NCBI GenBank assembly: GCA_001823105.1
Contig: MHTO01000004.1
Span: forward strand, 1-36,508
DNA from: Candidatus Wildermuthbacteria bacterium GWA2_46_15
Lineage (GTDB): Bacteria > Patescibacteriota > Minisyncoccia > Minisyncoccales > GWA2-46-15
Reading direction: 5' to 3'
DNA: 36,508 nt
In this document: piece after piece, positions 1,319 through 36,508 of the stretch
Layout of the letters: every line of letters starts with the position of its first letter
How positions within the stretch are numbered: position 1 is the first letter of the stretch
The notes under the pieces: model-generated
The model's input: the letters and a program-made list of their open reading frames with translations, nothing else
What the model was told of the DNA's origin: nothing
The model's database searches: none
Made by a program: the position numbers and the translations under genes

Positions 1319-1652
1319 AATCCCCCCCTTGCCGCATAAATAGCATAGCAGACCAACCCGACAAGGGCGTGTCGAGGTGATTTAGGGATTTTGTGAATTA
1401 AAACGGCCGCCGACTTAGCCCCGGAAGATTCCTGTCGGGTCTTTGTCCACTTCCCGCAGGGAGGGCGGCAGTGCTTTGGCGGGTCTGGCCTCAGCGTAAA
1501 GAAACCAGCGGCCGTTCCCGGCCCGGCAGTAAAGCGTCCAAAGCCCGGCGGCCATTAAGATATCCGCGAGAGAATATAGAGAAGCCTTGGGCAATCGGAC
1601 ACACCCTTGTCCTACCCGGGGTGTAAGATATCTTTATAGAAACGGAGGCACC

Positions 1653-3236
1653 ATGAAAAACAAAAAGACATTCAGCAGCAACCAACAATATCTTTCGGCG
1701 TTCTTTACCTTGGTAGGGATGAAGAAGAGAGGCCCATGGGAAGAGCCCAGTGATCGCCCTGTCCCACCCAGACAAGGCCCCCTCAAACCTCTCGAACTGC
1801 CGGATAACCAGCTTCTTATAGAGGACTTTCAGTTAAAAGTTAAGCGCACGCTCAAGGCTGGCGTTGACCTGCCGCTTGAGCGGCTTGGCAAGAAGCACAA
1901 GCTTTCATTTCCGGAAAAGGCCGTACTGGCCTATTTCGCCGGCACTGAGCTTTACCGCGCTCATGTGGAACTTGGCGGCATGATAGCCACCTTTGAATGC
2001 AAAAGCGTCGCGCCCGCTTTTGAAACAGCACAATTAATATGCCCCGGCTCAACGCTTATAAAGAAAAAACTTGTAATGACCGGCCTGCGCGATTTTCCCG
2101 GCCGCTTCTGCCCCGACGAAGCTTCGCTCGCCGGGAAGATCTTCACCCTTATAACCGGCCTTGAACTTAAGAAGGAACCTAAACCCAAGCGCCAGGCGCC
2201 GGTACAAAGCGCCAGCGCCCCTGCGGTAATTTATGAAAAGCTGGGCGAATATGTGGTTGGGCAGGAGGACGCCAAAAGAGCCATCTCTGCGGGAGTTTAC
2301 CTTCACCTGAAACGCACCAAGCTAAACGCGCACCGGCCCAAGGGACAGAAGCTAGCGAAAAGCAATATCCTTATCATAGGCCCTACCGGGAGCGGCAAGA
2401 CCCATATCTGCCGCACCCTCGCGGACGCGCTTAACCTGCCTTTCCACATAGCCGACGCCACCCAGTACACCGAAACCGGCTTCGTAGGCCGCACAGTAGA
2501 GGAGATGCTGCTGGACCTGCACAAAGGGAAAGACCTTGCCCCGTCCGCGCACGGCATAATCTACATTGACGAGATAGATAAGATAGCGGCCCAAAATATC
2601 GGCAAAGGGCACTCCGGCAACCGCGACGTAAGCGGCAAAAGCGTGCAGGAGGAACTGCTGAAGATCCTGGAGGGCGGAGAAATTACCTGCGAAAGGCAGC
2701 GCGGTCACGAGATGCAGAAAACCATAGACGCCAGCAACGTCTTTTTTATGGCTGGCGGCGCCTTCCAGGGACTGGAGGAAATAATAGCCCAGCGCCTAAA
2801 GAAAAAAGCAATCGGCTTCCGCGGCACCTCCGGAGAAACCCCCATCGAAACCGGCGCTCTGCTGAAGCAGGTGCTGCCGGAAGATCTCATAGCCTACGGC
2901 TTCATGCCGGAATTTATCGGGCGCTTCCCGGTAATAGCGGTGCTTGACCGCCTTACGAAGGTAGACCTTGTAAACATAATAACCGGCACCAAAAACTCCA
3001 TCCTCAACCAATACCGCGCGGTGATAGAGGAAACCGGCATGCCGGTGGAGATTCCGGAGGATATGCCCGAGCGGGTGGCCGAGGCCGCCCTAAAGCGCGA
3101 CCTGGGCGCCCGGGCCATAAAGGGAATAATGGAGAAATGGCTAATGGAGGAAATCTTCCGGCGAACCGGGGCCAGCCCGGCGCATCTCCCCCCCGCGGAA
3201 GAGGCCAGGAAAAAACTTTCTTCCGCCGGGGGCTGA
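1653..3236 (+). CDS. ClpX-family AAA+ unfoldase paralogue with a non-canonical (non zinc-finger) N-terminal domain
   Basis: GGAGG lies 5 nt upstream of the ATG at 1653. Motifs seen: Walker A GPTGSGKT, GFVG pore loop, Walker B IIYIDEIDK, IGF loop (KKAIGFRG), GARAIKGIME sensor region. The N-terminal 200 aa or so lack the CxxC pairs of canonical ClpX. Confidence 0.8.
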   Translation: MKNKKTFSSNQQYLSAFFTLVGMKKRGPWEEPSDRPVPPRQGPLKPLELPDNQLLIEDFQLKVKRTLKAGVDLPLERLGKKHKLSFPEKAVLAYFAGTELYRAHVELGGMIATFECKSVAPAFETAQLICPGSTLIKKKLVMTGLRDFPGRFCPDEASLAGKIFTLITGLELKKEPKPKRQAPVQSASAPAVIYEKLGEYVVGQEDAKRAISAGVYLHLKRTKLNAHRPKGQKLAKSNILIIGPTGSGKTHICRTLADALNLPFHIADATQYTETGFVGRTVEEMLLDLHKGKDLAPSAHGIIYIDEIDKIAAQNIGKGHSGNRDVSGKSVQEELLKILEGGEITCERQRGHEMQKTIDASNVFFMAGGAFQGLEEIIAQRLKKKAIGFRGTSGETPIETGALLKQVLPEDLIAYGFMPEFIGRFPVIAVLDRLTKVDLVNIITGTKNSILNQYRAVIEETGMPVEIPEDMPERVAEAALKRDLGARAIKGIMEKWLMEEIFRRTGASPAHLPPAEEARKKLSSAGG

Positions 3237-6345: not shown

Positions 6346-7332
6346 CTAAAGCCTTTTGACTGTAGCAATTAGATTTTTAAATCTTTTTATACTGTTTTCG
6401 AGTACAACAACACACGCCTCTGCTCCGCTTTTCTTATACCGCTCAGATGTTTGCTCCAGTTGCTGCAGAATGCTAAGCAAATTGGCTGCCAGGGTAATCC
6501 GATCCCCTGGATTCATTGTTAGAGTATAGTTCTGTATTTCTCTAACAACTACATTAATATTGCCGCATGCCGTACCAAACTCGGTTTCGGTGCCGTTGAA
6601 ATGGCTTAAGGCTATAATATCGCCATCCAACTGTTTGAGTTTGGATATAGCGCTGTCATTTGCGAACTTCTCTGTTCGTAAGGCGTCCTGTTGTTTCGCT
6701 TCACAAATACGCCTTTCTCTTTCTCGACTCTCTTGCCATTGTTTGGATATTTTTGCGATGACTTTCTTCAGATAGGCAAGCAACTCAGGGGTAAATATTA
6801 CTGCGACTATAACAGCTATTGGCGTGTAATAAACTAAATGCGGATTGCTGCGTGAAAACTCGTTTATGGCTAACTGCAGTAAGTATTTCAAATTATCCAG
6901 TCCTACAAACCACAATATCCCCCAAGTCCCAATTAGAAAACTAATCCCGTACCTAATTCGCGCGGAAAGACTTTTTGATGAATATTTAAGGACATTTAAG
7001 CCATAAATCATCGCAAATACTGCGAGGACAGTTCCGAATAAATTAAATCCGGAGACTGACGCAAAAATAGGATGCAAAAAAGTTTGTGCTTTTAATCCCA
7101 ATTCTCTTAGCCCAGGGAGGCCCCAAAATATCACCAGGCAAGAAACAAGTATAAAAATTCCGAATAAAATCTTCCCGCGGCGATTGACGGGCTCGTCAAA
7201 AAATGCGCTGAGGCATATTACAAATATAACGGATCCCACCTTAATTGTGTCGACCACGCCGTTGACAATAAACAATAATGGCCTAGCAATAATCCCAAAC
7301 AAATATGAAACAGCGCCAAGAAATGTCTGCAT
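6346..7332 (-). CDS. Polytopic membrane protein with cytoplasmic coiled-coil/alpha C-terminal domain, function unknown
   Basis: About six hydrophobic segments fall in the first 190 aa or so, followed by the charged stretch QWQESRERERRICEAKQQ and a soluble tail. The ATG at 7332 lies 4 nt after the upstream stop. The ORF track starts at a TTG at 7344. Confidence 0.55.
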   Translation of the reverse strand: MQTFLGAVSYLFGIIARPLLFIVNGVVDTIKVGSVIFVICLSAFFDEPVNRRGKILFGIFILVSCLVIFWGLPGLRELGLKAQTFLHPIFASVSGFNLFGTVLAVFAMIYGLNVLKYSSKSLSARIRYGISFLIGTWGILWFVGLDNLKYLLQLAINEFSRSNPHLVYYTPIAVIVAVIFTPELLAYLKKVIAKISKQWQESRERERRICEAKQQDALRTEKFANDSAISKLKQLDGDIIALSHFNGTETEFGTACGNINVVVREIQNYTLTMNPGDRITLAANLLSILQQLEQTSERYKKSGAEACVVVLENSIKRFKNLIATVKRL

Positions 7333-7336
7333 TTTA

Positions 7337-7864
7337 CTATTCAAGAAGATTCGTGGATTTCACCATCTCAAGCAGGCCTTGCAGTGCCTTTCGAGGATTA
7401 TCCTCCAAGCTCTTAATTATATTGTCGCTATCAGTCTTGGCTTTATCGCAGCGCATGTTTAGATCATTAATGTGAATCTCTAAATCCGCAATCCGCTGAC
7501 GATAAAACATGGTTTTACCGCTATCTGTTTTTTCACAGAATAGCTGCTCCTGGTACTTATTTTTCTCTTGATCCAAATTTGTAATTTGGGATTTATATAT
7601 TTCAAGCAACTCCTTTCTTCCCTCTATAAAAGAGTCTAACTGCCTATTAGTGAGTTTTTCAACAAGATCAAGGTAGCGCATACAAAAATCATAGCCCAAC
7701 TTTGTTTTGTAAGTTTTGTATTCCATTTCAAGTCGTTTTAGCGCCTTTTCTTTTTCAACCTCAAATAATTTTAGCGCTTTTTCTTTTTCAGCTGAGGCAT
7801 CTGCTTCTAAAACCTTTTGCGCGGCTATGATCACCGCGATAATTACTTTGTCTGAATATTTCAT
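7337..7864 (-). CDS. Coiled-coil protein with N-terminal hydrophobic anchor, function unknown
   Basis: 175 aa. It has an N-terminal VIIAVIIAA segment and heptad-rich Lys/Glu sequence. It is tightly coupled to the downstream membrane protein gene. Confidence 0.5.
   Translation of the reverse strand: MKYSDKVIIAVIIAAQKVLEADASAEKEKALKLFEVEKEKALKRLEMEYKTYKTKLGYDFCMRYLDLVEKLTNRQLDSFIEGRKELLEIYKSQITNLDQEKNKYQEQLFCEKTDSGKTMFYRQRIADLEIHINDLNMRCDKAKTDSDNIIKSLEDNPRKALQGLLEMVKSTNLLE
7736..7790 (-). repeat. In-frame 33-bp tandem duplication inside the coiled-coil gene
   Basis: TTTTAGCGCCTTTTCTTTTTCA (7736-7757) and TTTTAGCGCTTTTTCTTTTTCA (7769-7790) are 22-mers with one mismatch, offset by exactly 33 nt. 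They encode EKEKALKLFEV / EKEKALKRLEM. Confidence 0.8.
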
Positions 7865-8071: not shown

Positions 8072-8830
8072 TTATCGGGAAGTTGGGAGCGCTTCGCGCA
8101 TTAGTGTTGAAAGGTGTATGAAAGTTTCCGGCAGCGGGGGGTTGGGGCGGACGGAAATGTCGGCTGTGAAGGCGGCGAGGGCTGGGGTTGTGAACTTGAA
8201 AGCTTGGAGCCGGCCGTCACAGAACACGGACAGGGCGTCCTTGTCGCCCAGGACGGCCAGGGCGGCGGCCTCGGCGGCCAGCGTGATCTCCTGTACTGCC
8301 TGTCCTACGTCCTCACTTTTAATGAAATAGGCGGCATGAATTATCGCTTCTAGCGCGTGTCGGGCCATGACCTCGCCCAGCTGCGGGAGGTAGGTTATAG
8401 CAGTATAGATGAATATGCGGTCGTAATCGGGGCTGTTGCATATCTCCAGGCCGTTAATTACGCAAGCAAGCCCCTGATCGAGGCCGACCCTATCCAGAAT
8501 GTAGCCGTTTACTTCGACCACGACCTGCACCAGGTTTAGACCGCCCTTTTGCTTGCCCAGGCTCTCCAGTATTTTGCGCCGAAATTTTTTATCAAGACCC
8601 ATCGGCCCCTGCGGTTCCTTATCCCAACCGTAGACCAGGCCCTGTTGCAACTGCCACAAACTGCGCTTACCCCCCTCGCCAGGGTCTGGATCCGGCTTCG
8701 GCAATATGAAAAACGGCAATACAGCCCATGGGCCACTGTAACCCATCGCTTTAGCGAACTCTCCCTCCACAGGGATCCATTCTATAAAGAACTTGTTGCG
8801 CGGCGGCTCAATACTTTTAGTGTTTTCCAT
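8072..8830 (-). CDS. Hypothetical protein (252 aa), last gene of the mini-DnaB-like operon
   Basis: AGGAGG lies 8 nt upstream of the ATG at 8830. It is the longest ORF in a GC-rich stretch and is co-directional with the two ATPase genes, 39 nt after the second one. I recognise no motif. Confidence 0.55.
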   Translation of the reverse strand: MENTKSIEPPRNKFFIEWIPVEGEFAKAMGYSGPWAVLPFFILPKPDPDPGEGGKRSLWQLQQGLVYGWDKEPQGPMGLDKKFRRKILESLGKQKGGLNLVQVVVEVNGYILDRVGLDQGLACVINGLEICNSPDYDRIFIYTAITYLPQLGEVMARHALEAIIHAAYFIKSEDVGQAVQEITLAAEAAALAVLGDKDALSVFCDGRLQAFKFTTPALAAFTADISVRPNPPLPETFIHLSTLMREALPTSR

Positions 8831-8869
8831 GCTGTTTAGCCTCCTACAATGTTCCCGGGCATATTCGGG

Positions 8870-9457
8870 TTACCGTCCTAGCCCTATTAGGCAATCACCC
8901 TCGCCGTCAGTATTTGGGCTATACCTGGATATACCCAGCACAACCGCGGATTTAGTTTCAACCGCCAGTTTCTTCAGCTCGCCGCATATAGTTGCGCCGC
9001 CTTTACCGGCAGGATAGGCGCGCAACAGGTCCCCGTTGTCTATTACCACCAATCCTGGTTTATACTTAATGACGAATTTACGAACCGCTTTAAAGAACTG
9101 CGTAAAGCCAGAAGGCACTATATCGCCGATGTAAAGAGGCGCTTCGGAGAAATCATCCACAGCCTTGATAACCCTGCCCCCTTGGACCAGTGAAAGTCTT
9201 GTTTTTTTACCATCAGCCAGCCTTGTCCTGCCGTATACTTCGACCAACCTGACACCGTCCTCTACCATGGGTTTACGAAGCGGGATGTAAACAGCCGCCT
9301 TGCCGCCCACAACCGCGGCGTCGGCCAGGATTTTCGTGGCCAGGCTTGTCGTATCTGATACGTAGTAGCCGCAAATAACCCAAAGCTTTCCCGGCTTAAA
9401 TTCAGACACTATCCCAACCTCACTCTTCCGTTTTACTGCGCTTTTTTTAATTTTCAT
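8870..9457 (-). CDS. Stand-alone DnaB C-terminal (RecA-fold) like protein with degenerate Walker A
   Basis: It is a paralogue of the upstream gene (FKPGKLWVICG..., LYIGDIVPSGFTQFFKAVRKFV, LVVIDN, ATICGELKKLAVETKSAVV). The P-loop reads GYYVSDTT, so the lysine is lost. AGGAGA RBS. Confidence 0.6.
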   Translation of the reverse strand: MKIKKSAVKRKSEVGIVSEFKPGKLWVICGYYVSDTTSLATKILADAAVVGGKAAVYIPLRKPMVEDGVRLVEVYGRTRLADGKKTRLSLVQGGRVIKAVDDFSEAPLYIGDIVPSGFTQFFKAVRKFVIKYKPGLVVIDNGDLLRAYPAGKGGATICGELKKLAVETKSAVVLGISRYSPNTDGEGDCLIGLGR

Positions 9458-9517
9458 TAATTTTCTCCTATAAAACTACTAAAGAACCCGGCCGCATGAT
9501 GACATAGGCGGCACTGA

Positions 9518-10099
9518 TCAGTTCTGCTTTCCTTTCCGGCAGACGTCTTCCAGTTCAATTACGGCGTCAGCTTGACCGTCCGTCTCCTTGTTATAGCGCG
9601 GGGTGACCATAACTACCGCGGCCTTGATGTCTTTTGCCAGCTTCCGAAGTTCCCCGCATAAGGTTGCCCCGGCCTTGCCGGTGGTCCCCAAGCGCTGCGA
9701 GATTGCGTTGTCTATAACGACAAGCCTAATTTCTTTCCGGGCAAATTTCCGAACCTCCTTAATTAGTTCCGGCAACCCGCTCGGTTCAATATCGCTAAGG
9801 TAAACTGGTGCGCCAGACAGGGCCTTCGCCGCCGCCGCCAGCCGCTCACAGGCAACTTTAGCAGCCTTGGCTGTCCAGGCAGACTGCAGGGGGATACCAC
9901 TGTGAACGTTAGCCATAATAGAAGCGCAGTTCTTGGTGTCTTTATCCAGCGGCATGTACAGCGCGCCCTTGTTTTCGTCAACGGCACAGCCCGCCACCAG
10001 CCCCATGGCGAACCGCGTCTTGCCGGAGCCATTAGGCCCAATTACCACCCAGAGTTTCCCCGGCGGAAAAAGCTTGGTTATCTTTTCTTGTTTTTTCAT
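9518..10099 (-). CDS. Stand-alone DnaB C-terminal (RecA-fold) like ATPase, intact Walker A
   Basis: GGAG RBS then ATG at 10099 (MKKQEK). The P-loop GPNGSGKT is at 10016-10039. DnaB-like blocks are VYLSDIEPSGLPELIKEVRKFA, LVVIDN (Walker B) and ATLCGELRKLAKDIKAAVVMV. At only 193 aa it lacks the DnaB N-domain. Confidence 0.7.
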   Translation of the reverse strand: MKKQEKITKLFPPGKLWVVIGPNGSGKTRFAMGLVAGCAVDENKGALYMPLDKDTKNCASIMANVHSGIPLQSAWTAKAAKVACERLAAAAKALSGAPVYLSDIEPSGLPELIKEVRKFARKEIRLVVIDNAISQRLGTTGKAGATLCGELRKLAKDIKAAVVMVTPRYNKETDGQADAVIELEDVCRKGKQN

Positions 10100-10307
10100 C
10101 GTTTTCTCCATTGACCGACCCATGACCCACGGAACGCCAAAGGCCGGATATCTCCTTCCAGCCTCCAAAACCGGCCCATAAATACATATTAACAGGCTCA
10201 TCAGTCAACGTTGTGTCCGATTGTTTTTTGTCTGTAAAATACCACAACAGTCCCACCTATCCTCTTATAATGTAAAATTGTCTTTCAACGTTTTAGCCGG
10301 GGGTATC
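10100..10307. promoter_or_regulatory. Divergent control region between the mini-DnaB-like operon and the WYL regulator gene
   Basis: There is a perfect TATAAT at 10266-10271. TGTAAAAT repeats at 10233-10240 and 10271-10278. TTGTCT repeats at 10228-10233 and 10278-10283. TCAACGTT, which holds the AACGTT palindrome, occurs at 10205-10212 and 10285-10292. Confidence 0.35.
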
Positions 10308-11291
10308 ATGAAGCCTAAAAAGAGAAAAGTAATAATTTACGTCGGCACTGGCGCCAAGGACCGGCGCTTTGACACCTTTAAGAGAAGGATCATTTATATT
10401 TTTTCGCGCCTGGCGCAGAGGGGCTTTATTACCACAAAGGAACTTGCCGAAAAATTCGAGATGACACCGCGCAACGCCCTGCGCGACCTGTATCCACTGA
10501 GGGAGGAAGGCATCTTAAAGGAAAACATTACCCGCAGCGGCAGGTGGGAATTCGACACGGCGTCCAATTCCTTCATAAAGATGGTGGTTACGGATAATGA
10601 CTCTTCTACCCTGACTTTCCTCTACAATTTCGCCAAGGTTTTTGGCGGCGACATAAACGAGAAGGTGCTCAGCGTGCTGGATAAGGGTTTCCTCAGGGAG
10701 GACCGGGAATACCCGTTCTTTATGATAACCCAGAAGGTAAAGAACCCCGCAGCCAAAATGCCCTGCCACCAGGAGCTTTACGACGCCATACTAAAGCATC
10801 ATAAAATAAATCTTACCTACAGGAAGGCTACAGGGCAGCAGGCGACGGTAAAGGTTTCGCCTTTCTCCATGATAATGTGCGACGGCCTCTGGTACCTGGG
10901 CTATCTCCCTGACGGCAAGGAGAAGGAACTGCGGACAGTGCGCAGCAGCCACATAATTTCGGTGGAGCCTTTGCCGGACGAGGTTTTTGAGCGCCCGGAA
11001 TGGGCCCACAAGGCAATGAAGGAAGCCAAGAACATCTGGTTTGGCCCAGCCAAGACAAAATTCCGGCTAAAAGTCCAAAACACCATTAAGGACTACTTCG
11101 AGATGTCGGAATTCTTCCCCGAGCAGAAAATAAAGGACGAAGGCCCTGAGTATTTTACCATCGAGGCGCGCTACTCGCACTACAACGAGGTGGTGCCCAA
11201 CATCCTGCGCTTCCTGCCAGCCATTACCGTGCTGGAGCCGGCTGAACTAAAGGCCGAAGTGGCATGGCGGGTAAACGCGTACAAACCGTAG
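10308..11291 (+). CDS. WYL-domain transcriptional regulator (wHTH-WYL-WCX; BrxR/CapW/PafBC-like)
   Basis: The N-terminal wHTH is RGFITTKELAEKFEMTPRNALRDLYPLREEGIL. The WYL core is VSPFSMIMCDGLWYLGYLPDGKEKELRTVRSSHIISVEPL, followed by a C-terminal extension. GGGGG RBS before the ATG at 10308. Confidence 0.85.
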   Translation: MKPKKRKVIIYVGTGAKDRRFDTFKRRIIYIFSRLAQRGFITTKELAEKFEMTPRNALRDLYPLREEGILKENITRSGRWEFDTASNSFIKMVVTDNDSSTLTFLYNFAKVFGGDINEKVLSVLDKGFLREDREYPFFMITQKVKNPAAKMPCHQELYDAILKHHKINLTYRKATGQQATVKVSPFSMIMCDGLWYLGYLPDGKEKELRTVRSSHIISVEPLPDEVFERPEWAHKAMKEAKNIWFGPAKTKFRLKVQNTIKDYFEMSEFFPEQKIKDEGPEYFTIEARYSHYNEVVPNILRFLPAITVLEPAELKAEVAWRVNAYKP

Positions 11292-11392
11292 ATGACCTTT
11301 CCCCGTTGTTCAGACCAGTGCTGAGTTGTTAAATAGCAAATCCTCCAGTTTCAACTAGTCACCAGGAATTAAGCTAGAACACATCGACAGCG

Positions 11393-12982
11393 CTATTGGT
11401 TCCATCCGCCAGTGTCGCTATCTCGCCACCTGTCATAACCGCCTAGACTGCCGGGGCCATTTGGATGCAAGATGTGGTGTTCCTTCGCCGTAAGAGGCGT
11501 TAATTTCTGTGGAAATTTATAACAGTAGTACTCGGCCCAGACAATTTTATCTCGCCAGTACGGTTCTGCATACCAAAGACCAGCCTTTTCGCAATCAGCG
11601 CCAAACTCAATGCGCCATTTAGTGATTGTTTTAGTATCGACGCCTTTCCAAGTTGGGGCAGTGTGCCACTCATAGGCGCGCACCGGAATATCTTCCCATT
11701 CTTTTATCGCGTGCCACTCCGCGGCAGTAGCCGCGTCCTCCCCCCAGGCCTTGCGCCAGTCACACACAATTTTAGCCTGCGTGCCAGCCCAATGCGGTAC
11801 TTTATGCCAGATTTCCGTGGTTGCTGCATCCCGCTTAAAGTACTTGCTCCATGCCTCGGCAATAGAAATCCTGTCTTTCCAGTAATCTAATTTAAACCAG
11901 CAATATGCTGTAATCGGTTTTTGACCAAAATGCTGGTGCCAGGCAATTACGTCTTCGCCACAGACATCTTTCCAAAGCTCGCTTTTGTGCCAAAGGGAGG
12001 AATCCCTGGGATACTTCCGCCAATATTCCTGTTTATGCCATTCTATAGCAGCCTGGCAATTGTTCCCCCAGGATTTTCTCCATAAGATCGTTTCAGCTCC
12101 CAGGTTCTCCCAATAGGAGTCCGAGAACCAGGCTAAATTAGCGGCTGCAATGCTATTCCCTTGGCTAGCGGCAAGTTTGGACCAATGCTTTGCATTCTCA
12201 AGATCTTGCGGCACGCCGTCACCGAGGAAATATCTTTCTCCTAAATATTCCTGGGCTGATCCATCCCCTGAATTAGCGGCTTGGATGATTAGTGAAATAC
12301 CCCTTTCTTTGTCTAATCCGACAGCTTCGCCGGTAAAGGTGAGGAAACCAATCCAAAAGACCCCCGATTTTCCAGCAGCCTTAAAGCAGTTAACTGCTTC
12401 TCGATATTCATTTTGAATTGGCAGTCTGCGTGCCCTGTCTTTCTCGAGCAATTCCTGAGCGTTGATCAAGTGCAGTCGGCCTAACTTGATTAGCGCCGGG
12501 GAATATCTTTTGTCTGCCGCTGCCCTATACCAGCGGCCTGCTTTTGCGAAATCTTTTGGGATATCGGCGCTTCCCTCAAAATAAATATCCCCCAAAATCA
12601 TCATTGCCTCTGGATGACCCTGGTTTGCCGCCTTGAGGTATGACTCTAGAGCTTTCTGCAGGTCTTTTTCAGTCCCGCAGCCTTCTTCATACATTATCCC
12701 CAGATTCTTTTGTCCCTCGCTGTCTCCTTGCTTGGCGGCACGCGCATATAATTCAAACGCTAATTGAAGATTTTGTGGTACGCCCTCTCCGGAATTATAA
12801 ATATCCCCGAGTAAGTTGAGAGCTTTTGGGAAACCCTGTTCAGCAGCACGGTTCAGCCAGTAGATGGCCTGCTTTAGGTCCTTTTGTATGTCATGGCCAT
12901 GACAATAACATTCACCTATATGGTATTGAGCCTCTGGATTACCGCCTTCAGCAGATTGAAAGTATTTGTCTGGGATTGTCAT
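11393..12982 (-). CDS. Sel1-repeat (SLR/TPR-like) protein with a C-terminal Trp-periodic repeat domain
   Basis: There are at least five 36-aa Sel1 units, for example GNPEAQYHIGECYCHGHDIQKDLKQAIYWLNRAAEQG and FPKALNLLGDIYNSGEGVPQNLQLAFELYARAAKQG. A W-rich array of about 200 aa follows. Confidence 0.8.
   Translation of the reverse strand: MTIPDKYFQSAEGGNPEAQYHIGECYCHGHDIQKDLKQAIYWLNRAAEQGFPKALNLLGDIYNSGEGVPQNLQLAFELYARAAKQGDSEGQKNLGIMYEEGCGTEKDLQKALESYLKAANQGHPEAMMILGDIYFEGSADIPKDFAKAGRWYRAAADKRYSPALIKLGRLHLINAQELLEKDRARRLPIQNEYREAVNCFKAAGKSGVFWIGFLTFTGEAVGLDKERGISLIIQAANSGDGSAQEYLGERYFLGDGVPQDLENAKHWSKLAASQGNSIAAANLAWFSDSYWENLGAETILWRKSWGNNCQAAIEWHKQEYWRKYPRDSSLWHKSELWKDVCGEDVIAWHQHFGQKPITAYCWFKLDYWKDRISIAEAWSKYFKRDAATTEIWHKVPHWAGTQAKIVCDWRKAWGEDAATAAEWHAIKEWEDIPVRAYEWHTAPTWKGVDTKTITKWRIEFGADCEKAGLWYAEPYWRDKIVWAEYYCYKFPQKLTPLTAKEHHILHPNGPGSLGGYDRWRDSDTGGWNQ
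11522..12130 (-). repeat. Protein-level Trp-periodic repeat array (about 13 units of 14-17 aa)
   Basis: Trp falls at approximately residues 285, 301, 315, 331, 348, 362, 378, 392, 409, 423, 439, 456 and 470. A second Trp often follows 4-6 residues later. Recurrent units resemble WRKAWGEDAATAAE and WHKxxxW. Confidence 0.7.
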
Positions 12983-35255: not shown

Positions 35256-36508
35256 TTATTGATATAAGTATTTTTGGAAATCAATAAATGTTCTACGGAT
35301 ATCCTGAACATCTCCTAACAATACAGTCGCATCATCAATTTCGTGATATTTCAATTTAAGGAGTGCAGGGATTTTTTCTTGATCCAGCTCCTCAACACCG
35401 GTTTCGATATATTTAGTCAGCACAAAATCAAGAAACTCATGCTGCCGTGAGGTTAAGCCGATAAACATCTTTGCTTTTGCCTGCTCTGCACGTTCTGCAC
35501 GTGTTATGGGCTTAATAGCGAAAGAAACATATTCCAGCACATCAAAGAGATCGCTTTTTTCTGCTGCTATTAATTTCTGCAGCATGGACAGATCATCGTG
35601 GTTATAGCCGGCCGCTGCTAACTTTTCAAGGAAGGCATGACGTGTTATTGGGTTGGCCCATATATTTCTAAGTTCCGCTTCATCTTTAAAGAATTTCGGC
35701 AATTCCCCATATAACCCGGCTACGAATTCTTCGACAGACATTGGTTTCCCATCTGCCCCATAGAACGATGTGGTAATCATATGCTGAATCACTAGCTCTT
35801 TCCCCGGCGCAAGCTTGATTTTTATTTTCTTAAGGCATACACATGGGCTTTGCCCGCACTTCGGGCAAACTGGCTTCGGGCAAATGCAAGGTCTTTGGCC
35901 GCATACCGGGCAGGGGTTCGGCGGTTCTTTTACGCAAACACATGGTTTCTGCCCACAGGTTTCGCAGGTCTCAGGTTCTGGCTCACCGTCCCAATCTTTA
36001 TCGGAAAAGTGATGGCAGGCTCCTACAAAGTCGTAGATCGTGAAGTAATACTTGCCCTCAAACAAGCGCGTGCCGCGGCCGATAATCTGTTTAAACTCAA
36101 CCATGGACTTAATAGACCGCATCAGGACAATATTGCGTATATTGCGGGCATCAATTCCTGTGGATAACTTCTGAGAGGTTGTAAGTATGGTCGGGATAGT
36201 CTTGTCATTATCCTGGAAGTCTCTTAAATGTTGTTCCCCCAGTTCGCCGTCATTAGCCGTGACACGCTGGCAATAGTTCGGATCCGGGTTCTTCTTGTAC
36301 TGATTTATTAAATCACGTACTAGTGCTGCATGACCTTGGTTGGCGCAGAAGATCAGAGTCTTCTCGTTTTGGTTTATTTCAGAAAGAAGTATTTTTACCC
36401 GTTCGGCTTCTCGTTCTTTTATCTCAATAGTCCAGTTGAAATCAGGCTCGGCATAAACCCTGCCTGCCTCGACATCCCCTTCTATCACTTTGTCGTCTGG
36501 GACATAAA
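35256..36508 (-). CDS. hsdR: Type I restriction enzyme R subunit, C-terminal part (5' end lies beyond the right window edge)
   Basis: The frame is open to the window end. Helicase C-lobe motifs are TTSQKLSTGIDARNIRNIVLMR and QIIGRGTRL. An EcoEI-R C-terminal-type domain is present (NIWANPITRHAFLEKL...SDLFDVLEYVSFAIKPITRAERA...FLDFVLTKYIETGVEEL). Confidence 0.8.
   Translation of the reverse strand, partial: YVPDDKVIEGDVEAGRVYAEPDFNWTIEIKEREAERVKILLSEINQNEKTLIFCANQGHAALVRDLINQYKKNPDPNYCQRVTANDGELGEQHLRDFQDNDKTIPTILTTSQKLSTGIDARNIRNIVLMRSIKSMVEFKQIIGRGTRLFEGKYYFTIYDFVGACHHFSDKDWDGEPEPETCETCGQKPCVCVKEPPNPCPVCGQRPCICPKPVCPKCGQSPCVCLKKIKIKLAPGKELVIQHMITTSFYGADGKPMSVEEFVAGLYGELPKFFKDEAELRNIWANPITRHAFLEKLAAAGYNHDDLSMLQKLIAAEKSDLFDVLEYVSFAIKPITRAERAEQAKAKMFIGLTSRQHEFLDFVLTKYIETGVEELDQEKIPALLKLKYHEIDDATVLLGDVQDIRRTFIDFQKYLYQ
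35835..35966 (-). repeat. Three tandem CxxCGQxPCxC cysteine knuckles (33-nt units) inserted in hsdR
   Basis: The units are CETCGQKPCVC, CPVCGQRPCIC and CPKCGQSPCVC. They lie between the helicase core and the C-terminal domain and give 12 Cys in 44 residues. Confidence 0.85.

What the first reader, a model, noticed from the sequence alone, without database searches (positions are those of the whole stretch)
8072..11291. WYL regulator divergently paired with two stand-alone DnaB-C-terminal-like ATPases (one active, one dead P-loop) and an unknown 252-aa protein
Seen in sequence: two paralogous genes of about 194 aa encode only a DnaB C-terminal/RecA-like fold. The first has GPNGSGKT. The second has GYYVSDTT at the same place, so the Walker A lysine is lost, yet it keeps LVVIDN and the downstream DnaB-like blocks. 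A 252-aa protein with a strong AGGAGG RBS follows. A wHTH-WYL regulator is transcribed divergently from a 208-nt region with repeated motifs. Established: WYL regulators of the BrxR/CapW type repress defence operons and respond to DNA damage or ligands, and active/inactive ATPase pairs typically form hetero-oligomeric rings. Inference: this may be a WYL-controlled three-gene module of unknown function, a defence or mobile-element replication-interference candidate. The alternative is a remnant replication module of an integrated element.
Basis: partly seen in the sequence, partly recalled or inferred. Interest (0 to 1): 0.65.

Follow-up and report, generated by a model that had tools for sequence, protein, structure and literature searches.

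The report
WYL-gated minimal DnaB-like ATPase cassette
A rare four-gene cassette in a bacterial anti-phage island encodes a WYL regulator facing an active and a dead mini-ATPase plus an orphan helical-repeat protein; the genes are real and under selection, but the trio is not a fixed unit outside one lineage and its function is unknown.

Summary
Genes A (9518-10099, GPNGSGKT) and B (8870-9457, GYYVSDTT) are 40% identical paralogs of the DnaB RecA-like domain. C (8072-8830) follows an AGGAGG site. An HTH-WYL-WCX regulator (10308-11291) is divergent across 208 nt.

- **Not helicases.** A and B are truncated cores. They lack the DnaB N-domain, linker and arginine-finger C-terminus. B has also lost the Walker A lysine and the catalytic acid, yet is as constrained as A (dN/dS 0.28 vs 0.34).
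- **C is an orphan.** Only 5 cluster representatives appear among 1.84 billion. It has a TPR-like helical-repeat body and no conserved catalytic residues.
- **Discrete cassette.** Window 8086-11292 sits at the same hotspot in three related strains whose neighbouring restriction genes differ.
- **Trio not conserved.** Relatives of A at 51-56% identity pair with a UvrD-like helicase. C occurs without the ATPases. A WYL ortholog carries other cargo.
- **Conserved control site.** CGGACWCAACGYTG lies where the cargo promoter's -35 is inferred. A look-alike precedes a ClpX-like gene at 1596.

Best reading: a WYL-gated, swappable cargo module that is a candidate defence or DNA-stress system. No replication-module context was found. 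Function is unproven.

The parts
10308..11291 (+). HTH-WYL-WCX transcription regulator, 327 aa
   Evidence: Pfam WYL 1.8e-8, WCX 2.2e-7, HTH_DeoR 1.3e-4. PADLOC WYL models reach 1.5e-21. Orthologs are 93% (L001), 58% (L009) and 87% (L023) identical. dN/dS is 0.16.
10100..10307 (.). Divergent control region, 208 nt
   Evidence: Read directly. A perfect TATAAT at 10266-10271 faces the WYL gene. The leader of about 100 nt to A has a GGAG site before the ATG at 10099.
10203..10222 (-). Operator-like box 1, CGGACACAACGTTGACTG on the - strand. It overlaps a TTGACT hexamer that I read as the -35 of the A-B-C promoter; that promoter is my own inference and the consensus scan did not call it.
   Evidence: The core CGGACWCAACGYTG is exact in the window, L001, L021, L023, L009 and L010. 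It is the only conserved island in otherwise unalignable intergenic DNA. In L009 and L010 it is a palindrome, CGGAC-N8-GTCCG.
10282..10296 (+). Box 2, a second TCAACGTT copy between the WYL -10 element and the WYL start codon
   Evidence: Repeat family D1. Conserved in L001, degenerate in L023 and deleted in L009.
9518..10099 (-). A: minimal DnaB-C-terminal/RecA-fold ATPase, 193 aa. The Walker A motif (GPNGSGKT), H1a acid (D52) and Walker B motif (VVIDN) are intact.
   Evidence: Pfam DnaB_C 7.9e-14. PDB sequence hits are DnaB proteins. The AF2 model (pLDDT 61) matches the DnaB C-terminal domain best, then Twinkle, G40P and KaiC.
8870..9457 (-). B: paralog of A with a dead active site, 195 aa. 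GYYVSDTT replaces the P-loop and R replaces the catalytic acid.
   Evidence: 40% identical to A, E=1e-36. dN/dS 0.28. The dead P-loop drifts between strains: GYYVSDTT, GYYVSDMT and GYYVSNTT.
8072..8830 (-). C: orphan 252-aa protein. It has a conserved N-terminal region of about 80 aa followed by an all-alpha helical-repeat domain.
   Evidence: No hit in Pfam, PADLOC, NCBIfam, PHROGs or PDB sequences. Only 5 representatives among 1.84 billion proteins. In the AF2 model, blocks from residue 131 on have pLDDT 84-96, residues 81-130 have 61-72, and residues 1-79 are below 50. Foldseek gives only weak TPR/14-3-3-like hits.
1594..1612 (+). Tentative second operator, ATCGGACACACCCTTGTCC, about 40 nt before the start of the ClpX-like gene
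   Evidence: The pattern CGGAC-N8-GWCY occurs 3 times in the window against 0.35 expected. This site aligns without gaps to the cargo promoter through the -10-like ATATNTTT. It is not tested in other strains.
1653..3236 (+). ClpX paralog, 527 aa. It is the conserved neighbour of the cassette in all three related islands and a tentative regulon member.
   Evidence: ClpX AAA+ module, E=6.7e-74 over residues 190-503. An IGF tripeptide is present. It is 94-96% identical at the nucleotide level in L001 and L081.

Best explanation
This is a self-contained, WYL-controlled cargo cassette sitting at a variable defence hotspot of an uncultured groundwater bacterium. The closest named relative of the regulator is in an Elusimicrobiota MAG.

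Proposed mechanism:
- The WYL dimer binds the conserved CGGAC-N8-GnCnG site. That site overlaps a TTGACT hexamer that I read as the -35 of the A-B-C promoter. A second box lies downstream of the regulator's own -10 element.
- This binding sets transcription of A-B-C and of the regulator itself. A look-alike site suggests it may also control a ClpX paralog 7 kb away.
- A nucleic-acid-type ligand produced during phage attack or DNA damage binds the WYL domain and switches the operon on.
- A is the only catalytic subunit. B is a pseudo-ATPase kept for its fold, and most likely pairs with A into an asymmetric ATP-driven switch.
- The A/B pair is not a translocating helicase ring, because both proteins lack the DnaB N-domain, linker and arginine finger.
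- C is a non-enzymatic helical-repeat adaptor or sensor that links the pair to a target.
- The most likely biological role is anti-phage or anti-mobile-element defence.

Shown: the gene structures, the paralogy, the dead site, purifying selection, the cassette boundaries, the conserved motif and the modular reshuffling. Inferred: repression or activation by WYL, the A-B complex, the adaptor role of C, and the defence function.
For: - Discrete cassette with sharp homology boundaries in three strains whose flanks differ.
- Cassette GC content of 50-54% against 38-42% in the genes below it.
- Surrounding genes are restriction or defence genes. The window has GmrSD, McrBC-like, SNF2/BrxH-like and PLD genes. 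L001 has two GmrSD genes and an HNH gene. L081 has an Mrr gene. L002 has Vsr, Dcm and two restriction enzymes.
- The 14-nt operator-like core is exact in six sequence-distinct loci (the window plus L001, L021, L023, L009, L010) and lies 96-107 nt upstream of A or A'.
- The WYL-plus-promoter head is kept while the cargo is swapped in L023.
- WYL and A stay paired at 58% and 54% identity in L009.
- dN/dS is 0.16-0.34 for all four genes.
- A is DnaB-like but truncated.
- C has no conserved catalytic residues among its 14 invariant columns.
- BrxR-family WYL regulators are known to sit beside diverse defence systems and to bind promoter repeats (PMC9122601).
Against: - No protein matches any PADLOC defence model beyond a P-loop-only hit to mad8.
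- No recognisable effector such as a nuclease, membrane protein or NADase is present.
- B and C are not found with A outside one lineage.
- C also occurs in non-defence settings.
- One copy of B is destroyed by an IS21 element.
- All three A-B-C loci are the same hotspot in related strains. They are not independent acquisitions.
- The WYL protein shows no sequence match to solved BrxR, CapW, DriD or PafBC structures.
- The A structure model has low confidence (pLDDT 61).
- No expression data exist. Only DNA metagenome runs hold the sequence.
Confidence: 0.45

Rival explanations
1. This is a DNA-damage or ssDNA-responsive repair or stress module, not a defence module. The WYL protein acts as a DriD/PafBC-type activator that senses ssDNA. 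A, with its pseudo-ATPase partner B, works as a RecA/Rad51-paralog-like accessory factor on DNA together with helicase-nucleases.
For: - The nearest A relatives overlap the start of a UvrD/AddA-like SF1 helicase gene by 28 nt.
- In L009 and L010 the palindrome sits where a -35 element should be, and the -35 itself is poor (CTGTCC). That is the geometry described for activator-type WYL proteins (DriD and PafBC papers listed).
- Active/dead RecA-fold pairs are typical of recombination mediators (established knowledge).
Against: - A and B lack the DNA-binding loop region of DnaB.
- The cassette sits in a hypervariable restriction-gene hotspot.
- It is extremely rare and patchy, and once IS-disrupted. 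That is unlike core repair genes.
- In the window, the hexamer I read as the cargo -35 (TTGACT) is close to consensus, which suits repression.
Confidence: 0.22
2. This is a substrate-delivery or regulatory module for the neighbouring ClpX paralog. WYL co-regulates A-B-C and the ClpX-like unfoldase. C (helical repeats) and A/B select or prepare substrates for ClpXP-type degradation during stress or infection.
For: - An operator look-alike with the same spacing to a -10-like element precedes the ClpX-like gene.
- The ClpX-like gene is the one other gene kept next to the cassette in all three islands.
- It keeps an IGF tripeptide and has a non-canonical N-domain of about 185 aa.
Against: - The second site has modest statistical support: 2 of 100 shuffles reach the observed count.
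- It could not be checked in other strains because the contigs end.
- Synteny may only reflect a shared hotspot border.
- L009, L010 and L023 are too short to show a ClpX-like gene.
Confidence: 0.1
3. This is a remnant or domesticated piece of a mobile-element replication module, that is, a truncated DnaB-type helicase that was duplicated.
For: The best family matches are DnaB_C and phage DnaB or primase-helicase PHROGs. The structural neighbours are replicative helicases.
Against: - There is no primase, Rep, integrase, tRNA or origin-like repeats in 36.5 kb.
- tblastn finds nothing in 50,697 phage records and only two weak DnaB-like hits in plasmids.
- The one viral-contig hit is a full-length 423-aa DnaB.
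- The short length of 193-197 aa is conserved down to 51% identity.
- dN/dS of about 0.3 argues against decay.
Confidence: 0.06

Closest known systems
BrxR/CapW-type WYL regulators of defence islands (Picton et al. 2022, PMC9122601; Luyten et al. 2022; Blankenchip et al. 2022)
   Same: It has the HTH-WYL-WCX architecture and sits in a defence island. It lies next to a promoter that carries a (pseudo)palindromic site. The regulator stays constant while the cargo varies. Its orientation is divergent, as for CapW.
   Different: There is no detectable sequence match to solved WYL regulators. The cargo is not a known system. Repressor versus activator logic is undetermined.
DriD / PafBC / SiwR WYL activators of SOS-independent DNA-damage responses
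   Same: It has a WYL sensor domain. Its binding site overlaps the -35 region. In relatives there is a link to a UvrD-like helicase.
   Different: The genomic context is restriction and defence genes. No ssDNA-binding test was possible.
DnaB/SF4 replicative helicases (DnaB, G40P, T7 gp4, Twinkle)
   Same: It has a RecA-like core with a Walker A motif (H1), H1a acid, Walker B motif (H2) and an H3-equivalent strand. These are the best sequence and structure matches.
   Different: A and B have only 193-195 aa. They have no N-terminal domain or linker helix, and they lack the C-terminal third that carries the arginine finger. The H4 loop is at best vestigial. B is catalytically dead.
Active/inactive RecA-fold pairs (Rad51 paralog dimers, archaeal RadB, the Shu complex Csm2-Psy3, KaiC CI/CII)
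   Same: Core-only RecA-fold proteins occur as an active member with a degenerate paralog encoded side by side.
   Different: This is an analogy only. There is no specific sequence relationship (RadB hit E=0.075, KaiC hit 7e-4).
TPR / Sel1 / 14-3-3-type helical-repeat adaptors
   Same: The C-terminal two-thirds of C is predicted as stacked helical hairpins.
   Different: The Foldseek E-values are all 0.1 or higher. There is no repeat-family Pfam hit, and the N-terminal 80 aa are unique.

Membership tests
DnaB-family replicative helicase | N-terminal domain plus linker helix preceding the ATPase domain | tested here: not met
   A and B are 193 and 195 aa. Alignment to DnaB starts at residue 187 of about 434. 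NCBIfam DnaB equivalog scores are 42 and 23 bits against a cutoff of 385.
DnaB-family replicative helicase | Complete RecA-like domain including the H4 DNA-binding loop and the arginine finger | tested here: not met
   Only Pfam DnaB_C positions 6-176 of 255 are matched. A ends opposite residue 373 of 434 in 4nmn.
DnaB-family replicative helicase | Walker A GxxxxGK[ST] motif and catalytic H1a glutamate | tested here: inconclusive
   Met in A, which has GPNGSGKT and D or E at the SLEM-equivalent position. Not met in B, which has GYYVSDTT and R or H there.
DnaB_C domain (Pfam PF03796) | Score above the gathering threshold of 27 bits | tested here: met
   A scores 52.1 bits. B scores 27.4 bits, which is borderline.
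BrxR/CapW-type WYL defence regulator | HTH + WYL + WCX domain architecture | tested here: met
   Pfam HTH_DeoR, WYL and WCX all score above their cutoffs.
BrxR/CapW-type WYL defence regulator | Adjacent to and controlling a recognised defence system | tested here: inconclusive
   It lies in a defence island, but the immediate cargo matches no PADLOC system.
BrxR/CapW-type WYL defence regulator | Binds inverted repeats in the promoter and represses transcription | not testable with these tools
   A conserved pseudo-palindromic site was found. Binding and the direction of regulation need EMSA and reporter assays.
Any catalogued anti-phage system (PADLOC-DB v2.0.0) | Component proteins match system models | tested here: not met
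   B and C have no hits. A matches only the P-loop stretch of mad8 and mad3.
Phage or plasmid replication module | Neighbouring primase, initiator, integrase or origin; homologues in phages or plasmids | tested here: not met
   None is present in the window or in L001, L009, L010, L021 or L081. The phage search found nothing, and the plasmid search found two weak hits.

The most novel reading that the evidence does not exclude
A-B-C, possibly together with the co-regulated ClpX paralog, is a new WYL-gated anti-phage system. In this reading a DnaB C-terminal-domain mimic pair, one live subunit and one dead, acts as a decoy or poison for an invader's replicative helicase or helicase loader. The helical-repeat protein C recognises the target or hands it to the unfoldase.
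Probability: 0.1. Interest if true: 0.8.

Novelty: new variant of a known kind. Interest (0 to 1): 0.45.

Why it matters
If functional in defence, this would add a system with no recognisable effector. It would be built from a stripped-down replicative-helicase ATPase domain and its pseudo-enzyme paralog, which points to interference with replisome proteins rather than nucleic-acid cleavage.

Independently of function, the locus gives a clean natural example of a portable 'WYL regulator + operator + promoter' head driving interchangeable cargo: A-B-C, A'-helicase, or two unrelated small genes. That makes the regulator's signal and operator directly testable.

The value is limited by extreme rarity, since only a handful of metagenomic contigs carry it, and by the lack of any experimental or expression data.

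Tried and rejected
- The genome-contig scan with the A-family alignment found no relatives.
- The metagenome-contig scan returned only SufC-like ABC ATPases, which are false positives.
- The viral-contig scans gave one hit for A/B, which is a full-length 423-aa DnaB, and nothing for C.
- The PADLOC mad8 and mad3 hits cover only the P-loop and were discarded.
- The 156-aa gene that precedes C in L011 and L012 is not a diverged B (E=1.6) and has no Pfam hit.
- The L009 helicase is not related to the window's own UvrD-like genes beyond generic SF1 motifs.
- The distant WYL loci L024-L080 (20-27% identity, mostly Firmicutes) hold no A, B or C homologues.
- Foldseek of C against PDB and BFVD found nothing below E=0.1.
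- Rfam found no RNA family in the window.
- The consensus promoter scan called none of the promoter elements I read in the intergenic region.
- No RNA-seq runs hold the sequence, so expression could not be examined.
- Literature searches for DnaB-like plus WYL plus defence, and for PF03796 plus defence, returned nothing.


Full report
**1. What is there**

The region holds four genes.
- C lies at 8072-8830 on the minus strand and encodes 252 aa.
- B lies at 8870-9457 on the minus strand and encodes 195 aa.
- A lies at 9518-10099 on the minus strand and encodes 193 aa. The longer ORF to 10201 is not supported. A GGAG site precedes the ATG at 10099, homologues start there, and gene callers on identical contigs give 193 aa.
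- The regulator lies at 10308-11291 on the plus strand and encodes 327 aa.

C is preceded by AGGAGG and B by AGGAG. The 208-nt gap is 10100-10307.

**2. The two ATPases**

A and B are paralogs, 40% identical with E=1e-36. Both match Pfam DnaB_C. A scores 52 bits and B scores 27.4 bits, just at the cutoff. The closest solved sequences are DnaB proteins. An AlphaFold model of A has low confidence (pLDDT 61). It matches DnaB C-terminal domains first (E about 1e-7), then Twinkle, G40P and KaiC.

These are truncated cores, not helicases.
- Only profile positions 6-176 of 255 are covered.
- A ends opposite residue 373 of the 434-residue Aquifex DnaB.
- The DnaB N-domain and linker are absent, and so is the C-terminal part that carries the arginine finger (role of that part from established DnaB literature). 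The H4 loop lies at or just past the point where A ends.
- NCBIfam DnaB equivalog scores are tenfold below cutoff.

A keeps GPNGSGKT, an acidic residue at the SLEM-equivalent position (D, or E in L001) and VVIDN. B has GYYVSDTT and R or H at the acid position. B is therefore doubly dead. The dead loop itself drifts between strains: DTT, DMT and NTT. Overall, though, B is as constrained as A. Against L001, dN/dS is 0.28 for B, 0.34 for A, 0.33 for C and 0.16 for WYL, at dS of about 0.25. B is a maintained pseudo-enzyme, not a pseudogene.

**3. Protein C**

C has no hit in Pfam, PADLOC, NCBIfam, PHROGs or PDB sequences. A word-index search of 5.8 billion clusters found 5 clusters. A full HMMER profile search of 1.84 billion representatives also found 5.

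In the AlphaFold model, 10-residue blocks from residue 131 on have pLDDT 84-96. Residues 81-130 have 61-72, and the sequence-conserved first 79 residues are below 50. The modelled body is an all-alpha helical-repeat domain. Foldseek gives only weak TPR, 14-3-3 and Sel1-like resemblance. The 14 invariant columns are W, G, P, L, N and I, with no catalytic-looking set. C looks like an adaptor or sensor rather than an enzyme.

**4. Rarity and host**

- The A family has 4 clusters and the B family has 3.
- There are no relatives in 185,579 species genomes.
- There are none in phages and only two weak DnaB-like hits in plasmids.
- All carriers are metagenomic contigs, mostly from groundwater.
- The nearest named sequence is a WYL ortholog, 87% identical, in an Elusimicrobiota MAG. 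The host assignment is an inference from that single hit.

**5. Is the arrangement conserved?**

*Same lineage.* L001 and L081 carry WYL/A/B/C at 89-91% nucleotide identity. Homology begins and ends at window 8086 and 11292/11337. All three contigs also share a ClpX-like gene a few kb away at 94-96% identity, so this is one hotspot in related strains. Between the cassette and that gene the content differs:
- the window has a 175-aa gene, a 332-aa gene, GmrSD and a 153-aa gene;
- L001 has two GmrSD-family genes;
- L081 has an Mrr gene.

On the other side the content also differs:
- the window has Sel1 and helicase genes;
- L001 has an HNH gene and unknown genes;
- L081 has unknown genes and an ankyrin-repeat protein.

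The cassette is thus a discrete unit. Its GC content (50-54%) is higher than the genes below it (38-42%). In L021, B is cut after about 100 codons by an IS21 element.

*More distant relatives.*
- A' at 51-56% identity in L009 and L010 is followed by a UvrD/GajB-like SF1 helicase gene that overlaps it by 28 nt. There is no B and no C.
- L009 keeps the divergent WYL gene at 58% identity. L010 does not.
- C at 55% identity follows a Zn-ribbon gene and an unrelated 156-aa gene in L011-L013.
- C precedes Vsr, Dcm and two restriction enzymes in L002.
- More distant C homologues stand next to a cyclase fragment, a Tex-like gene or an ABC-F ATPase.

*Cargo swapped.* L023 keeps the WYL gene and the intergenic DNA down to window 10144. 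Its cargo is two unrelated small genes.

So the stable unit is the regulator with its control region, and the next most stable pairing is WYL with A. The A-B-C trio is lineage-specific.

**6. Control region**

The intergenic DNA of L009 and L010 is otherwise unalignable with the window's. Across all loci one block survives: CGGAC(A/T)CAACG(T/C)TG. It is exact in the window (10206-10219), L001, L021, L023, L009 and L010. It always lies 96-107 nt upstream of the A or A' start.

In L009 and L010 it is a clean palindrome, CGGAC-N8-GTCCG. In the window it overlaps a TTGACT hexamer, and a conserved ATATATTT block follows 15-18 nt later. I read these as the -35 and -10 of the cargo promoter. The consensus promoter scan did not call them.

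A perfect TATAAT at 10266-10271 faces the WYL gene. A second TCAACGTT box (10285-10292) lies between it and the start codon. That box is a plausible autoregulatory site, but it is not conserved in L009.

A repressor (BrxR/CapW-like) fits the window's good -35 hexamer. An activator (DriD/PafBC-like) fits the poor -35 in L009 and L010. The data cannot decide between them. The protein has the HTH-WYL-WCX architecture but no sequence match to solved WYL regulators.

**7. A possible second target**

ATCGGACACACCCTTGTCC at 1594-1612 lies about 40 nt before the called start of the ClpX-like gene (1653). Its first 10 nt match box 1 exactly. It aligns without gaps through a -10-like TATCTTTAT.

The degenerate pattern occurs 3 times in the window against 0.35 expected, and 2 of 100 shuffles reach that count. 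The gene encodes a ClpX AAA+ module (E=7e-74), an IGF tripeptide and an unrelated N-domain of about 185 aa. This suggests a small regulon that brackets the variable restriction-gene segment. The support is modest, and the site could not be checked in other strains.

**8. Interpretation**

Most likely (about 0.45) this is a WYL-gated cargo module of a defence hotspot. A acts as the ATP-hydrolysing subunit, B as its structural partner and C as an adaptor or sensor. The evidence for defence is contextual only. No known system matches, and no effector domain is present.

Rival explanations:
- A DNA-damage or ssDNA-responsive module (0.22), favoured by the A'-helicase coupling and by the known biology of WYL activators.
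- A ClpX-paralog substrate-delivery module (0.10).
- A replication-module remnant (0.06), which context, selection and database searches argue against.

It could not be tested here because no multimer prediction was available.

**9. Novelty and score**

The WYL-regulator-with-variable-cargo pattern is known (PMC9122601). The cargo, a live/dead pair of minimal DnaB-domain proteins plus an orphan helical-repeat protein, is not described in any library or paper searched. I rate it a new variant of a known kind. Interest is 0.45. It is a real and unusual feature, but it is extremely rare, lineage-restricted and without functional evidence.

Noticed in passing
window 1653-3236 (+), with site at 1594-1612: A ClpX paralog carries a ClpX AAA+ module (E=7e-74), an IGF tripeptide and an unrelated N-terminal domain of about 185 aa in place of the zinc-binding domain. 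No clpP gene is nearby. It is preceded by a look-alike of the WYL operator and is conserved beside the cassette in L001 and L081.
   Followed up: partly
window 7337-7864 and 6346-7344 (-): A low-GC (38-42%) gene pair matches no library at a significant level. One gene encodes a 175-aa lysine/glutamate-rich protein and the other a 332-aa protein with a hydrophobic N-terminal half. The pair is absent from L001 and L081, so it is separate cargo and possibly a small two-gene defence system.
   Followed up: partly
window 11393-12982 (-); L081 6096-7523: A 529-aa protein has N-terminal Sel1 repeats and a tryptophan-rich repetitive C-terminal half (W-H-K / Y-W motifs). It is convergent with the WYL gene. 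In L081 the same position holds a 475-aa ankyrin-repeat protein.
   Followed up: no
window 13252-33501 (-): A dense run of helicase-based defence genes: a UvrD-like protein with a 340-aa N-extension (951 aa), an SNF2 protein resembling BrxH/DrmD (1232 aa), a 1737-aa DEAD+UvrD fusion, a McrC-like plus AAA_5 McrB-like pair, and an SNF2 (784 aa) plus PLD (614 aa) pair followed by a 419-aa unknown. Which known systems these form was not resolved.
   Followed up: partly
window 35256-36488 (-): This ORF encodes only the C-terminal part of a type I restriction R subunit (Helicase_C + EcoEI_R_C, 410 aa). It starts 20 nt from the window edge. It may be truncated or frameshifted, or its true start may be masked by the window end.
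   Followed up: no
L021 2619-3032, and the 5669-nt sister contig: An IS21-family element (IstA/IstB) is inserted into gene B after about codon 100 in one strain.
   Followed up: yes
L009 1513-2937; L010 1422-1574: A UvrD/AddA-like SF1 helicase gene overlaps the end of the A-type ATPase gene by 28 nt. This is an alternative two-gene cargo under the same operator. Both contigs end inside the helicase gene.
   Followed up: partly
L011 180-1746; L012 143-1391: In other organisms C homologues (55% identity) follow a 104-aa double zinc-ribbon protein and a 156-aa protein of unknown family. This is a different three-gene arrangement around C.
   Followed up: partly
window 10107-10145 (- strand leader of A): The leader of A, about 100 nt long, contains an inverted repeat (GGCCGG ... 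CCGGCC) that is conserved in L001 and L021. In L023 the homology with the window ends at 10144, at the far arm of this repeat. Its significance is unknown.
   Followed up: no
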